Shown in pieces: positions 1,158 through 4,371 of a stretch of 5,380 nt of DNA. The notes beneath the pieces were generated by a model. It saw only the letters and a program-made list of their open reading frames with translations. It made no database searches and was not told the DNA's origin. The stretch's first letter is position 1, and every line of letters starts with the position of its first letter. This DNA is from a virus (lineage: Duplodnaviria; Heunggongvirae; Uroviricota; Caudoviricetes): IMG/VR virus record IMGVR_UViG_2667527898_000018; one strand, 5' to 3'. The translations under genes and the position numbers were made by a program.

Positions 1158-1237
1158 CTTCATCGTCACATAGCTGGTAACCAGTGGCCTGAAGAGACGT
1201 TTGGGTGATGTACATAGCATTTCTGGATAAAAATACA

Positions 1238-1281
1238 GATTCCCTTTATGGGAAATGAATCTATAATTCCCAAAGAGGGAA
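1238..1281 (+). promoter_or_regulatory. Candidate higB promoter with two palindromic operator-like sites
   Basis: Perfect -10 TATAAT at 1262-1267, flanked by two palindromes of identical architecture TTCCC-N5-GGGAA at 1240-1254 (TTCCCTTTATGGGAA) and 1267-1281 (TTCCCAAAGAGGGAA). No good -35 is evident. RBS-like AGAGGGA at 1274-1280 lies inside the second palindrome. Confidence 0.5.
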
Positions 1282-1293
1282 CAAAATCGGATT

Positions 1294-1581
1294 ATGAAGG
1301 TCTTAAACGTAGAGAAGCTTCACAGTTTTAGCCAGAAGCACAATCAGGCCAAGGGGGCTTTAGACTCTTGGTATGATGAAGTGATAAGAGAAAACTGGAA
1401 AACGACTCAAGACATACGGAATAGATTTAATTCTGCCGACTTCCTTCCTAACAACAGGGTAATTTTTAATATAAAAGGCAATAACTATCGGCTCGTTGTC
1501 CAAGTTGTTTACCAGGCAGGAATGGTCATAGTTGAAAGAGTTGGAACTCATGCAGAGTACGACAAGTGGAGGCTTAAATGA
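1294..1581 (+). CDS. higB: HigB-family type II toxin (RelE/ParE superfamily mRNA interferase), 95 aa
   Basis: C-terminal region FNIKGNNYRLVVQVVYQAGMVIVERVGTHAEYDK matches the recalled HigB pattern (E. coli HigB: FNVGGNELRVV...REVMTHKEYD). Toxin-first gene order is typical of higBA. Stop overlaps the next start in ATGA (1578-1581). Confidence 0.85.
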   Translation: MKVLNVEKLHSFSQKHNQAKGALDSWYDEVIRENWKTTQDIRNRFNSADFLPNNRVIFNIKGNNYRLVVQVVYQAGMVIVERVGTHAEYDKWRLK

Positions 1582-2234
1582 ATCGAACTAGCTGGCGCAT
1601 CATTAAAAATAGTGAAGAGCATGCTGCAGCTATGGAAAGGCTCATTGAACTTGCGTCTAGTGATTTACAACCTGGAACTGAAGATTTTGATGAGTTTGAA
1701 CTACTAGGCTTGCTTATCGAGCACTATGAGTCACGCGAGTTCCCTATGGACAAGCCAGATCCCATAGAAGCAATCAAGTTCCGTATGGATCAACAAGGCC
1801 TCTCTTATGCCGATATGAAACAATACATTGGCTCAGCATCTAAAGTATCTGAGGTCTTAAATCGTAAGCGTCCATTAAGTCTTTCAATGATCCGTAGACT
1901 ACATGACGGACTTGGAATTCCTGCAGATATCTTAATTCAAGATATGAGCGCAATTGAATGGAGCCTAGTTGACGCAGAGGAAGAAGAAACAGCCATGACT
2001 AGCGTCATTGCTCGGTGTGAGTCAGCCGTCACATCACCTTCTGCTTATTTCGCTGAAAAGGCTACAGAATCTTACTTTTCAAAAATGTTGTTCAGCGCAG
2101 TAAGGGGTAACGGCAAATGCAAAGAAAAACGGAATGTTTTTTCTTTGATAAGTAACTTGTCATCAAGTTTCACAGCGGCTAGCAACCTGAATGACGAAAT
2201 GACTTCTGACGGAAATTACTTATTATTACCATGA
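1578..2234 (+). CDS. higA: HigA-family HTH antitoxin with ~96-aa C-terminal extension (candidate chaperone-addiction segment), 218 aa
   Basis: Residues ~67-122 (KFRMDQQGLSYADMKQYIGSASKVSEVLNRKRPLSLSMIRRLHDGLGIPADILIQ) match the HigA HTH as recalled from E. coli HigA (…MDQYGLTLSDLPEIGSKSMVSRVLSGKRKLTLEHAKKLATRFGISPALFID, which ends there). This ORF continues ~96 residues further. Start overlaps the higB stop (ATGA) and its stop overlaps the next start (ATGA, 2231-2234). Confidence 0.85.
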   Translation: MNRTSWRIIKNSEEHAAAMERLIELASSDLQPGTEDFDEFELLGLLIEHYESREFPMDKPDPIEAIKFRMDQQGLSYADMKQYIGSASKVSEVLNRKRPLSLSMIRRLHDGLGIPADILIQDMSAIEWSLVDAEEEETAMTSVIARCESAVTSPSAYFAEKATESYFSKMLFSAVRGNGKCKEKRNVFSLISNLSSSFTAASNLNDEMTSDGNYLLLP

Positions 2235-2635
2235 AAATTGAACTCATTAGCAAAAAAGTTGAACGCTTGGTTATGACACGGCTAGAAGGCGATTCAACAG
2301 CAAAAAAATCCATAAAAACAACCGTTAATCTAAATAATGAACTTTACACTAATGTGAAGGATTCAAAGCTATTTAGAGTGAGATATTTTGCCTCCGTAAC
2401 TATTGAAGGCAGGCTTGAGATGGACATCACATACGACTTTGACTTCCGGTCAGAAGATGATTTTTCTCATGAAATGGCAAAATCATATGAGGTAAGGTCC
2501 ATTGCTCCCAATATGGCATATCCCTATATAAAAACATATGCCGAGCAAATTATCCTCATGTCAAACCTTGGTAGGTTCACTCTGCCTTATTTTGATTTCT
2601 TGGCCAATCCCATGGAAACGAACAGTAATAAGTGA
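2231..2635 (+). CDS. SecB-like chaperone (candidate TAC chaperone), 134 aa
   Basis: C-terminal region SIAPNMAYPYIKTYAEQIILMSNLGRFTLPYFDF aligns with the recalled E. coli SecB segment [33 protein letters not shown] (PN..PY, (R/K), L.P, (N/D)F). Size is close to SecB (155 aa). Translationally coupled to the extended higA. Confidence 0.7.
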   Translation: MKIELISKKVERLVMTRLEGDSTAKKSIKTTVNLNNELYTNVKDSKLFRVRYFASVTIEGRLEMDITYDFDFRSEDDFSHEMAKSYEVRSIAPNMAYPYIKTYAEQIILMSNLGRFTLPYFDFLANPMETNSNK

Positions 2636-2643
2636 AATTCCCC

Positions 2644-2670
2644 ACCCGGCCTCAGCGCCGGGTTTTCTTT
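2644..2670 (+). terminator. Rho-independent terminator ending the cI/higBA-secB transcription unit
   Basis: GC stem CCCGGC (2645-2650) / GCCGGG (2657-2662) with a 6-nt loop, followed by TTTTCTTT (2663-2670), 10 nt after the SecB-like stop. Confidence 0.7.
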
Positions 2671-2976: not shown

Positions 2977-3141
2977 AATAACCAAAGTGAACTTTGGGGT
3001 GTGGTGAAGGGTTCATGGACGGGAATATGTCGCACGTAAAGCGGCGAGGCCTGCGGGACTATTGCCGAATTGAAGTAGGCCGAAACAGGTCGAAATGGGT
3101 CTCCCACCTACCACACCACCAAAGTTCATCAGGAGGTCTAT

Positions 3142-4226: not shown

Positions 4227-4254
4227 CCATAAACAACAGAATAAACACTGCACT

Positions 4255-4282
4255 GTGTATTCATTCCAACGAGTGAATACAC
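4255..4282. repeat. Perfect 9-bp inverted repeat GTGTATTCA-N10-TGAATACAC
   Basis: GTGTATTCA (4255-4263) and TGAATACAC (4274-4282) are exact reverse complements separated by 10 nt, in the intergenic gap between two terminator-like hairpins. Function unknown. Confidence 0.5.
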
Positions 4283-4344
4283 GGAGCAATGTCGCTCGTA
4301 ACTAAACAGGAGCCGACTTGTTCTGATTATTGGAAATCTTCTTT

Positions 4345-4371
4345 GCCCTCCAGTGTGAGGGCGATTTTTTA
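4345..4371 (+). terminator. Rho-independent terminator-like hairpin upstream of the 122-aa gene
   Basis: Stem GCCCTC (4345-4350) / GAGGGC (4357-4362), loop CAGTGT, followed by GATTTTTTAT (4363-4372). Confidence 0.65.

What the first reader, a model, noticed from the sequence alone, without database searches (positions are those of the whole stretch)
1238..1281. Two identical-architecture palindromes (TTCCC-N5-GGGAA) bracket the -10 of the higB promoter
TTCCCTTTATGGGAA (1240-1254) and TTCCCAAAGAGGGAA (1267-1281) sit 27 bp apart centre-to-centre, about 2.5 helical turns. The perfect TATAAT (1262-1267) lies between and overlapping them. This is the expected layout for autorepression by a dimeric HTH antitoxin, but the sequence differs from the prophage cI operator motif, so the module appears to have its own control.
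Basis: seen in the sequence. Interest (0 to 1): 0.5.

Follow-up and report, generated by a model that had tools for sequence, protein, structure and literature searches.

The report
HigA operator pair at higBAC promoter
Two matching 15-bp palindromes flank the -10 box in front of a prophage toxin-antitoxin-chaperone defence cassette; they are almost certainly the binding sites through which the HigA antitoxin represses its own operon, which is real and well supported but an ordinary kind of control.

Summary
TTCCCTTTATGGGAA (1240-1254) and TTCCCAAAGAGGGAA (1267-1281) are exact TTCCC-N5-GGGAA palindromes whose centres lie 27 bp apart, with a perfect TATAAT (1262-1267) between them. Shuffles predict 0.01 such sites per window.

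The genes downstream are the HigBAC toxin-antitoxin-chaperone cassette. It sits in the rexAB slot of an H-19B/BP-4795-type Stx prophage and matches the published E. coli NT1F31 antiphage system.

- Of 121 non-redundant higB-higA loci from many phyla, 105 carry an exact TCCC-N5-GGGA within 120 bp upstream of higB. That is 127 sites against 0.26 in shuffles, and 581 times the density in the rest of the same loci.
- Loci with two sites keep the 27-bp spacing in 19 of 22 cases.
- In aligned relatives, site 1, the -10 and site 2 are conserved among otherwise unrelated sequence; the enteric clade adds one short A-rich block.
- The base flanking each half-site co-varies with HigA recognition-helix residues.
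- E. coli K-12 higBA, which HigA autoregulates, has the same layout with TTGCC-N5-GGCAA.

cI operator cores (ATTTATC) occur only at OR and OL. The cassette and its sites follow at least ten different cI alleles.

Binding and repression were not tested. This is a new member of a known kind, of modest interest.

The parts
1240..1254 (.). Operator O1 (distal), TTCCCTTTATGGGAA. It covers roughly -34 to -20 of the predicted promoter, over the -35 position.
   Evidence: Exact palindrome. Conserved in 18 of 19 aligned two-site relatives. Matches the family consensus wTTCCCAwwwTGGGAAy.
1267..1281 (.). Operator O2 (proximal), TTCCCAAAGAGGGAA. It covers roughly -7 to +8, that is the last base of the -10 and the predicted start site.
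   Evidence: Exact palindrome. Core conserved in all 19 aligned relatives bar one substitution in L001; GGGAA invariant. The 27-bp spacing from O1 is kept in 19 of 22 two-site loci.
1262..1267 (+). -10 hexamer TATAAT of the cassette's own promoter.
   Evidence: Read from the sequence. T, A, T, A and the final T are invariant across 19 relatives while the 6 bp upstream vary. The transcription start is inferred at about 1274 and has not been mapped.
1240..1245 (+). Weak -35 candidate TTCCCT (3 of 6 matches, 16-bp spacer), lying inside O1.
   Evidence: Inferred from the geometry. The promoter scan did not call it because the -35 falls below its threshold.
1223..1238 (+). Conserved A-rich block TGGATAAAAATACAGA just upstream of O1. 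It may be UP-element-like; its function is unknown.
   Evidence: Conserved in the enterobacterial TAC clade, whereas sequence further upstream is unrelated.
1294..1581 (+). higB, a ribosome-dependent mRNA interferase toxin. No Shine-Dalgarno sequence lies 5-10 nt upstream of its start.
   Evidence: PF09907, E 4.5e-30. PADLOC PD-Lambda-2_A, E 2e-42.
1578..2234 (+). higA, encoding an N-terminal domain, an HTH (residues about 59-121, recognition helix about 86-97 SASKVSEVLNRK) and a 96-residue chaperone-addiction tail (122-218). This is the predicted repressor.
   Evidence: Matches K-12 and Shigella HigA structures 5ifg and 5ycl over the HTH. Length and W128/F158/F188/Y214 match the NT1F31 HigA. 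The HTH is nearly invariant among homologues.
2231..2635 (+). higC, a SecB-like chaperone. Its start overlaps the higA stop (ATGA).
   Evidence: PADLOC PD-T4-9_C (CmdC), E 2.8e-11. Eight of 16 homologues hit Pfam SecB, best E 2.3e-6. Y39/N41/R49/D71 match the published HigC.
2644..2663 (+). Intrinsic terminator that ends the cI-higBAC transcription unit. It lies in the junction sequence shared with many lambdoid prophages.
   Evidence: Terminator scan. Window 2644-2700 matches hundreds of E. coli prophages, including the end of lambda rexB.
1210..1212 (.). Left junction of the cassette. Homology to prophages with the same cI but other cargo ends here.
   Evidence: Alignment with L166 and L167; annotations.

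Best explanation
The two palindromes are operators for the HigA antitoxin of the HigBAC toxin-antitoxin-chaperone cassette.

Proposed mechanism (inferred). A HigA dimer places its two helix-turn-helix motifs on the TTCCC and GGGAA half-sites, whose centres are 10 bp, or one helical turn, apart. One dimer on O1 occupies the -35 position. One dimer on O2 occupies the end of the -10 and the start site. RNA polymerase is therefore excluded from the cassette's own sigma-70 promoter (TATAAT 1262-1267, start near 1274), and the operon is negatively autoregulated.

By analogy with the M. tuberculosis TAC, the DNA-binding form is probably HigA held by the HigC chaperone, with or without HigB. When HigA is lost, for instance when an invading phage's tail protein competes for HigC, the sites would empty and the operon would be derepressed.

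No terminator separates cI from higB, so PRM transcripts probably also read into the cassette, as they do for lambda cI-rexAB.

Shown here: the sites exist; they are conserved across the family; they sit in the core promoter; they co-vary with the HTH; and they travel with the cassette. Inferred: binding itself, stoichiometry, repression, the start site and the derepression scenario.
For: The sites are exact and non-random.

Gene identities are secure: HigB PF09907, HigA HTH related to K-12 HigA, and a SecB-like third gene. Residue-for-residue landmarks match the experimentally validated NT1F31 HigBAC.

The motif is conserved across the family. Exact TCCC-N5-GGGA lies within 120 bp upstream of higB in 105 of 121 non-redundant loci from Proteobacteria, Bacteroidota, Chloroflexota, Verrucomicrobiota and others. 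That is 127 sites in 14.5 kb, against 9 in 598 kb elsewhere in the same loci (581-fold) and 0.26 in dinucleotide shuffles (maximum 2). The spacing is 27 bp in 19 of 22 two-site loci.

The phylogenetic footprint is sharp. O1, the -10 and O2 are conserved among otherwise unalignable upstream DNA, and the enteric clade adds one A-rich block.

Protein and DNA co-vary. HigA residues 88/89/91 of S-K-S go with TTCCC (50 of 52 loci), N-R-Y with GTCCC (24 of 29) and G-R-S with CTCCC (10 of 10).

The site always sits in a promoter context, either inside the -35/-10 spacer or over the -35.

K-12 higBA has two TTGCC-N5-GGCAA-type repeats 29 bp apart with TATCAT between them, and HigA represses that promoter (PMC2814082).

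The whole 57.9-kb BP-4795 genome contains no other exact site.

The cassette and its sites follow ten different cI alleles. The cassette boundary lies at about 1210.
Against: No binding, footprint, reporter or start-site data exist for this promoter. The HigBAC paper used PBAD and Ptet, not the native promoter.

The -35 is poor, and the generic promoter scan did not call the promoter.

The co-variation and conservation statistics are inflated by shared ancestry among loci.

The two sites can also pair with each other as RNA (-17.7 kcal/mol, z -3.6), so an additional RNA-level role is not excluded.

A 27-bp spacing puts the two dimers on roughly opposite faces of the helix. Cooperative binding is therefore not implied, and the stoichiometry is unknown.
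Confidence: 0.82

Rival explanations
1. The element acts mainly at the RNA level. In PRM read-through transcripts from cI, O1 pairs with O2 to form a 42-nt hairpin, or each site forms a small hairpin. This structure would serve as a processing, stability or attenuation signal between cI and higB.
For: The predicted hairpin for 1236-1285 has a free energy of -17.7 kcal/mol, against -8.9 for shuffles (z -3.6). In 19 relatives, 93.6% of cells can pair. No terminator lies between cI and higB, so such a transcript probably exists.
Against: Pairing between the sites follows automatically from having two similar palindromes. Co-variation is no better than the controls: two cells with double changes, and 45 of 500 shuffles do as well. 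The arms are invariant in sequence across phyla, which fits protein recognition rather than structure-preserving drift. Most family members have a single site, where no inter-site hairpin is possible. No U-tract follows on the + strand. If the promoter starts near 1274, the cassette's own mRNA would carry only half of O2. The HTH-to-flank co-variation has no RNA explanation.
Confidence: 0.05
2. The palindromes are bound by a protein other than HigA, such as phage cI or Cro, or a host regulator (for example a MerR/CueR-like factor).
For: A P. aeruginosa tssA2 promoter fragment reported to bind CueR contains the identical 15-mer TTCCCAAAGAGGGAA (PMC6907878). Palindromes of this size suit many dimeric regulators.
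Against: The cI operator core ATTTATC occurs only at OR and OL. The sites accompany higBA in hosts from many phyla, and behind ten different cI alleles. The only constant partner is therefore HigA, whose recognition helix co-varies with the flanking base. The site differs from canonical CueR boxes, and the authors of the cited paper themselves call the fragment atypical.
Confidence: 0.04
3. The sites do bind HigA, but their main role is not repression of a promoter located here. They would act as a roadblock or insulator for PRM read-through, or as a HigA reservoir, with the TATAAT being incidental.
For: The -35 is weak and no start site has been mapped. Transcription entering from cI is likely because no terminator intervenes.
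Against: The TATAAT is invariant among relatives while neighbouring bases vary. Chromosomal higBA loci with no upstream co-oriented gene keep the site embedded in clear -35/-10 pairs. The K-12 analogue is a mapped, HigA-repressed promoter.
Confidence: 0.07

Closest known systems
E. coli K-12 higBA (ygjNM) promoter, autoregulated by HigA
   Same: The toxin and antitoxin families are the same (PF09907 HigB; HigA HTH alignable), and the gene order is toxin first. There are two 5-N5-5 inverted repeats with the -10 between them, centred at -52 and -23 from the ATG, against -47 and -20 here. The promoter was mapped and shown to be repressed by HigA (PMC2814082).
   Different: The half-site is TTGCC/GGCAA rather than TTCCC/GGGAA. 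The spacing is 29 bp rather than 27, and the -10 is TATCAT. K-12 HigA lacks the chaperone-addiction tail and has no SecB-like partner. Its recognition helix differs (SMVSRVL against SKVSEVL). Overall similarity is weak (about 26 bits).
Phig operators O1/O2 of plasmid Rts1 (Proteus vulgaris HigBA)
   Same: Two inverted-repeat operators overlap the -35 and the -10. Each is bound by one HigA dimer of a HigB2HigA2 tetramer. O1 is centred near -27, as predicted here (bioRxiv 10.1101/2021.03.04.434028).
   Different: The HigB and HigA subfamilies and the operator sequence are different. The centre-to-centre spacing is about 22 bp. For Rts1, binding was shown to be non-cooperative and either site sufficed for repression. 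Neither property is known here.
M. tuberculosis TAC (HigB1-HigA1-SecB-TA) P2 promoter palindrome
   Same: It is a toxin-antitoxin-chaperone operon whose antitoxin represses its own promoter through a palindrome. Chaperone-bound HigA1 still binds the DNA, in a 4:2:1 complex (PMC6377645). That makes chaperone-bound HigA a plausible repressor form here.
   Different: The operator is an unrelated single 38-bp palindromic region. The chaperone-addiction tail is shorter, and the host and gene context differ.
E. coli NT1F31 HigBAC antiphage system (Mets et al.)
   Same: It is apparently the same cassette, in the same slot downstream of cI in a lambdoid prophage. HigA is 218 aa with W128/F158/F188/Y214, and HigC has Y39/N41/R49/D71.
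   Different: That study expressed the genes from PBAD and Ptet and did not examine the native promoter or operators. The sites described here add to that work and do not duplicate it.
Lambda cI-rexA-rexB arrangement
   Same: Defence cargo sits directly downstream of cI and ends at a shared terminator or junction sequence. Co-transcription from PRM is likely.
   Different: The cargo here is a TA-chaperone module carrying its own repressor-controlled promoter rather than rex.

Membership tests
Type II toxin-antitoxin autoregulatory operator (HTH antitoxin, HigA type) | Inverted repeat with half-sites about one helical turn apart, suited to a dimeric HTH protein | tested here: met
   TTCCC-N5-GGGAA occurs twice, with half-site centres 10 bp apart.
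Type II toxin-antitoxin autoregulatory operator (HTH antitoxin, HigA type) | Sites overlap the core promoter directly upstream of the first gene of the TA operon | tested here: met
   O1 lies over the -35 position and O2 abuts a perfect, conserved TATAAT, 13 nt before the higB ATG. The start site itself has not been mapped.
Type II toxin-antitoxin autoregulatory operator (HTH antitoxin, HigA type) | A cognate DNA-binding antitoxin is encoded in the operon | tested here: met
   HigA carries an HTH homologous to K-12 HigA.
Type II toxin-antitoxin autoregulatory operator (HTH antitoxin, HigA type) | The motif is conserved upstream of homologous operons and absent elsewhere | tested here: met
   Found in 105 of 121 loci, with 581-fold enrichment and 0.26 sites expected from shuffles. 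There are no other exact sites in the 57.9-kb phage genome.
Type II toxin-antitoxin autoregulatory operator (HTH antitoxin, HigA type) | Operator bases co-vary with recognition-helix residues | tested here: met
   SKS goes with T, NRY with G and GRS with C at the flanking position. Phylogenetic non-independence has not been corrected for.
Type II toxin-antitoxin autoregulatory operator (HTH antitoxin, HigA type) | The antitoxin physically binds the sites and represses transcription | not testable with these tools
   Needs EMSA, footprinting or reporter assays. No such data were found for this promoter.
Toxin-antitoxin-chaperone (TAC) system, HigBAC type | RelE/HigB-type toxin, antitoxin and third gene in one operon | tested here: met
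   The ORFs 1294-1581, 1578-2234 and 2231-2635 overlap at their junctions. HigB matches PF09907.
Toxin-antitoxin-chaperone (TAC) system, HigBAC type | The antitoxin carries a C-terminal chaperone-addiction extension | tested here: met
   Residues 122-218 extend beyond the HTH. They are variable among homologues and keep the four aromatic positions of the published ChAD.
Toxin-antitoxin-chaperone (TAC) system, HigBAC type | The third gene is a SecB-like chaperone | tested here: met
   PADLOC CmdC model, E 2.8e-11. Eight of 16 homologues hit Pfam SecB. The window protein itself does not reach Pfam, NCBIfam or PDB-sequence thresholds.
Toxin-antitoxin-chaperone (TAC) system, HigBAC type | Toxin neutralisation depends on the chaperone | not testable with these tools
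   Shown experimentally for the matching NT1F31 system, not here.
Lambdoid cI/Cro operator of this phage | 17-bp site with the ATTTATC core, as in oR1-3 and oL1-3 | tested here: not met
   ATTTATC occurs at 380-423 and 2777-2880, and at two coding positions, but nowhere in 1158-1293.
Intrinsic terminator or structured RNA element | Stable stem followed by a U-tract on the transcribed strand, or pairs supported by compensatory changes | tested here: not met
   No + strand terminator was called here, only a weak 5-bp hit on the - strand. Co-variation is not above the controls.

The most novel reading that the evidence does not exclude
The 42-bp double palindrome may have a second role beyond promoter repression. 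It lies only about 85 bp downstream of cI with no terminator in between. HigA bound at O1 and O2 could therefore act as a roadblock to PRM read-through. Alternatively, or in addition, the O1:O2 hairpin in read-through RNA could act as a processing or insulation signal. Either way, the level of the defence cassette in a lysogen would be set by HigA occupancy rather than by cI transcription, and loss of HigA during a superinfection would open both routes at once.
Probability: 0.1. Interest if true: 0.5.

Novelty: new member of a known kind. Interest (0 to 1): 0.3.

Why it matters
HigBAC is a validated antiphage abortive-infection system carried by Shiga-toxin prophages, but its native transcriptional control has not been described.

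Defining the operator pair gives a concrete handle on how much toxin, antitoxin and chaperone a lysogen makes, and on whether loss of HigA during infection feeds back on transcription.

The family-wide consensus (wTTCCCAwwwTGGGAAy) and the apparent residue-to-base correspondence are useful in two ways. They can help annotate higBA promoters in many phyla. They also offer a small natural set of orthogonal repressor/operator pairs: S-K-S with T, N-R-Y with G, G-R-S with C, and K-12 HigA with TTGCC.

None of this overturns current understanding. It fits the standard model of type II TA autoregulation.

Tried and rejected
- The generic sigma-70 scan did not list this promoter because the -35 fails its threshold. 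I kept the promoter call because the -10 is conserved.
- NCBIfam gave nothing useful for HigA or HigC. Single-sequence and profile searches of HigC against PDB sequences found no SecB. The SecB link came from PADLOC and from Pfam hits of homologues.
- I tested the RNA-hairpin reading by folding and by pair counting on 19 relatives. It is energetically possible but has no co-variation support, so I kept it only as a minor rival.
- A cI or Cro operator was rejected because the motif is different and its distribution is different.
- A search of the whole BP-4795 genome for further HigA sites found none, so there is no sign of a wider HigA regulon.
- A full-text search for the motif sequences found no HigA-related paper, only a coincidental identical 15-mer in a P. 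aeruginosa CueR study.
- The Caulobacter HigA preprint gave no operator motif to compare.
- My first ORF-based attempt to locate higB starts was unreliable. I replaced it with tblastn-anchored starts.

Full report
**What is in the window.** The window is the immunity region of an H-19B/BP-4795/ST2-8624-type Shiga-toxin prophage; region 1158-2700 is 99.5% identical to those phages. The layout is as follows.
- A cro-like gene lies at 106-339 on the minus strand.
- OR lies at about 340-452.
- cI (Peptidase_S24) lies at 453-1157.
- Three overlapping genes follow at 1294-1581, 1578-2234 and 2231-2635.
- A terminator lies at 2644-2663.
- OL/PL lies at about 2770-2890.
- N, an Nmad5 gene, a DUF2528 gene, cIII and kil follow.

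The three genes are as follows.
- HigB matches PF09907 (E 4.5e-30).
- The second gene is an HTH protein whose HTH aligns with E. coli K-12 and Shigella HigA structures (5ifg, 5ycl).
- The third protein matches the PADLOC model of the SecB-like chaperone CmdC (E 2.8e-11). Eight of 16 of its homologues hit Pfam SecB.

The antitoxin is 218 aa with W128, F158, F188 and Y214. The third protein has Y39, N41, R49 and D71. These are exactly the landmarks reported for the experimentally validated antiphage HigBAC of E. coli NT1F31, which also sits downstream of cI in the lambda rexAB slot (bioRxiv 10.1101/2024.02.24.581848). That study used PBAD and Ptet and says nothing about the native promoter.

**The observation.** The coordinates are right:
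- TTCCCTTTATGGGAA at 1240-1254;
- TTCCCAAAGAGGGAA at 1267-1281;
- TATAAT at 1262-1267;
- centres 27 bp apart.

The exact pattern occurs twice, against 0.01 expected, and no shuffle reached two. The TATAAT touches only site 2, by one base. Site 1 lies where a -35 would be; the best candidate is TTCCCT, which matches 3 of 6 positions with a 16-bp spacer. This explains why the generic promoter scan missed the promoter. The two sites are also inverted copies of each other, 13 of 15.

**Comparative test.** The HigA HTH is almost invariant among homologues, so its binding site should be conserved too. I collected 80 loci from one-genome-per-species contigs and 80 from viral contigs. I anchored higB starts with tblastn and removed duplicate upstream regions, which left 121 loci.
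- Exact TCCC-N5-GGGA lies within 120 bp upstream of higB in 105 of these loci.
- There are 127 sites in 14.5 kb of upstream sequence, against 9 in the remaining 598 kb of the same loci, a 581-fold difference.
- Dinucleotide shuffles of the upstream regions gave a mean of 0.26 sites and a maximum of 2.
- The hosts span Gamma-, Beta- and Deltaproteobacteria, Bacteroidota, Chloroflexota, Verrucomicrobiota and Spirochaetota.
- The consensus is a 17-bp palindrome, wTTCCCAwwwTGGGAAy.
- Where two exact sites occur, they are 27 bp apart in 19 of 22 loci. Many loci with one exact site keep a GGGAAC half-site about 27 bp downstream.

**Footprint.** I aligned 19 two-site relatives whose HigB is 59-99% identical to the window's. 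Sequence upstream is unalignable. The conserved blocks are O1, TATAAT, O2 with its following C, and, in the enteric clade, a short A-rich block (TGGATAAAAnACAGA). The 6 bp between O1 and the -10, the N5 spacers and the leader to the ATG all vary. One relative (L124) has lost O1 but keeps O2.

**Protein-DNA co-variation.** The base flanking TCCC tracks HigA residues 88/89/91:

| HigA residues 88/89/91 | Half-site | Loci |
|---|---|---|
| S-K-S | TTCCC | 50 of 52 |
| N-R-Y | GTCCC | 24 of 29 |
| G-R-S | CTCCC | 10 of 10 |

These classes are clades, so the nominal P value (6e-21) overstates independence. Even so, three states changing together is what direct readout predicts.

The distant K-12 HigA (SMVSRVL) has TTGCCAATCTGGCAA and TTGCCAATTTGTCAA 29 bp apart, with TATCAT between them. 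That promoter was mapped and shown to be repressed by HigA (PMC2814082). It is the closest experimentally supported analogue.

**Promoter context.** Across the family the site lies in one of two places (descriptive, with no shuffle control):
- inside a 17-nt spacer between TTGnnn and TAnnnT (25 loci, mostly Betaproteobacteria);
- over the -35 position with a TAnnnT 4-8 nt downstream (about 46 loci, including the window).

Taking the start as 7 nt after the -10 (about 1274), O1 spans -34 to -20 and O2 spans -7 to +8. This resembles Rts1 Phig, whose O1 and O2 overlap the -35 and -10 and are each bound by one HigA dimer without cooperativity. In the M. tuberculosis TAC, chaperone-bound HigA1 binds its palindrome as a 4:2:1 complex (PMC6377645). 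A HigA-HigC complex is therefore a plausible repressor form here.

**Own control.**
- The cI operator core ATTTATC occurs three times at OR and three times at OL, and not between cI and higB. ST2-8624 annotates oR1-3 there and nothing at the higB promoter, and H-19B does not annotate the three genes at all.
- Prophages with the same cI but other cargo (a Clp-fold serine proteinase, or small unknown ORFs) share the 52 bp after cI and the terminator region. Homology with the window stops at about 1210.
- In the other direction, ten relatives of the cassette lie behind ten different HTH+S24 repressors.
- The whole BP-4795 genome has no other exact site.

So the operators belong to the cassette, not to the phage's immunity circuit. 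No + strand terminator lies between cI and higB, so PRM read-through into the cassette is also likely.

**Rivals.**
- As RNA, O1 can pair with O2 (-17.7 kcal/mol, z -3.6). This follows automatically from two similar palindromes, co-variation is not above the controls, and most relatives have only one site.
- Binding by cI, Cro or a host factor does not fit the distribution. An identical 15-mer in a P. aeruginosa fragment reported to bind CueR looks coincidental.
- A pure roadblock role cannot be excluded, but the conserved -10 makes it less likely.

**Verdict.** This is the predicted HigA operator pair of the HigBAC cassette's own promoter, a new member of a well-known kind of control. The motif does not appear in connection with HigA in the searchable literature. 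Binding, repression and the start site remain to be shown experimentally.

Noticed in passing
window 1223-1238: A block TGGATAAAAATACAGA just upstream of O1 is conserved across the enterobacterial TAC clade, although DNA further upstream is unrelated. It could be an UP-like element or a site for another factor. On the minus strand it supplies the T-run of a weak terminator-like hit that uses O1 as the stem.
   Followed up: partly
window 1240-1281: In the two-site clade, the half-sites facing the -10 carry the family-consensus spacer base (TGGGAA in O1, TTCCCA in O2). The outer halves are TTCCCT and AGGGAA, which are reverse complements of each other. The pair therefore has an overall two-fold symmetry about the -10.
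   Followed up: partly
window 1281-1296, 1567-1571 and 2231-2234: higB has no Shine-Dalgarno sequence at a normal distance from its start, and the leader is not conserved. higA is preceded by a strong GGAGG 6 nt upstream. The higC start overlaps the higA stop (ATGA). This suggests low toxin translation and coupled antitoxin/chaperone translation.
   Followed up: no
window 1158-1211 and 2644-2700: These are conserved junction sequences flanking a cargo slot downstream of cI. The same cI allele is followed in other E. coli prophages by an SDH-family Clp-fold serine proteinase or by small unknown ORFs. The right junction and terminator are shared with hundreds of prophages, including the end of lambda rexB.
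   Followed up: partly
window 2506-2518: A one-mismatch copy of the operator core (TCCCAATATGGCA) lies inside higC, in the codons for the conserved PNMAYPY motif. It is probably coincidental.
   Followed up: no
L124 (viral contig), upstream of higB: This is a natural variant in which O1 is destroyed (TACACTTTACAAAGAA) while the -10 and O2 are intact. It could serve as a ready-made single-operator comparison.
   Followed up: no
window 1578-1958 (HigA residues 5-127): The N-terminal domain and HTH of HigA match the PADLOC model PD-Lambda-2_B (E 3.8e-50), and HigB matches PD-Lambda-2_A. The same HigB/HigA core is therefore also used in a different three-gene antiphage system, where HigA is fused to a peptidase.
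   Followed up: partly
window 4245-4292: A 22-nt-arm inverted repeat (82% complementary, 4-nt gap) lies between the Nmad5 gene and the DUF2528 gene, a little upstream of a terminator-like hairpin at 4343-4364.
   Followed up: no
window 2993-3005 and 3110-3122: A 13-nt inverted repeat spans about 104 nt just upstream of N. It may be part of the nutL region structure of this phage group.
   Followed up: no
PMC6907878 (P. aeruginosa tssA2 promoter): A 34-bp fragment reported to bind CueR contains the exact 15-mer of O2 (ATTCCCAAAGAGGGAAT). The authors note that it differs from known CueR boxes. One may ask whether a HigA-family protein binds there instead.
   Followed up: no
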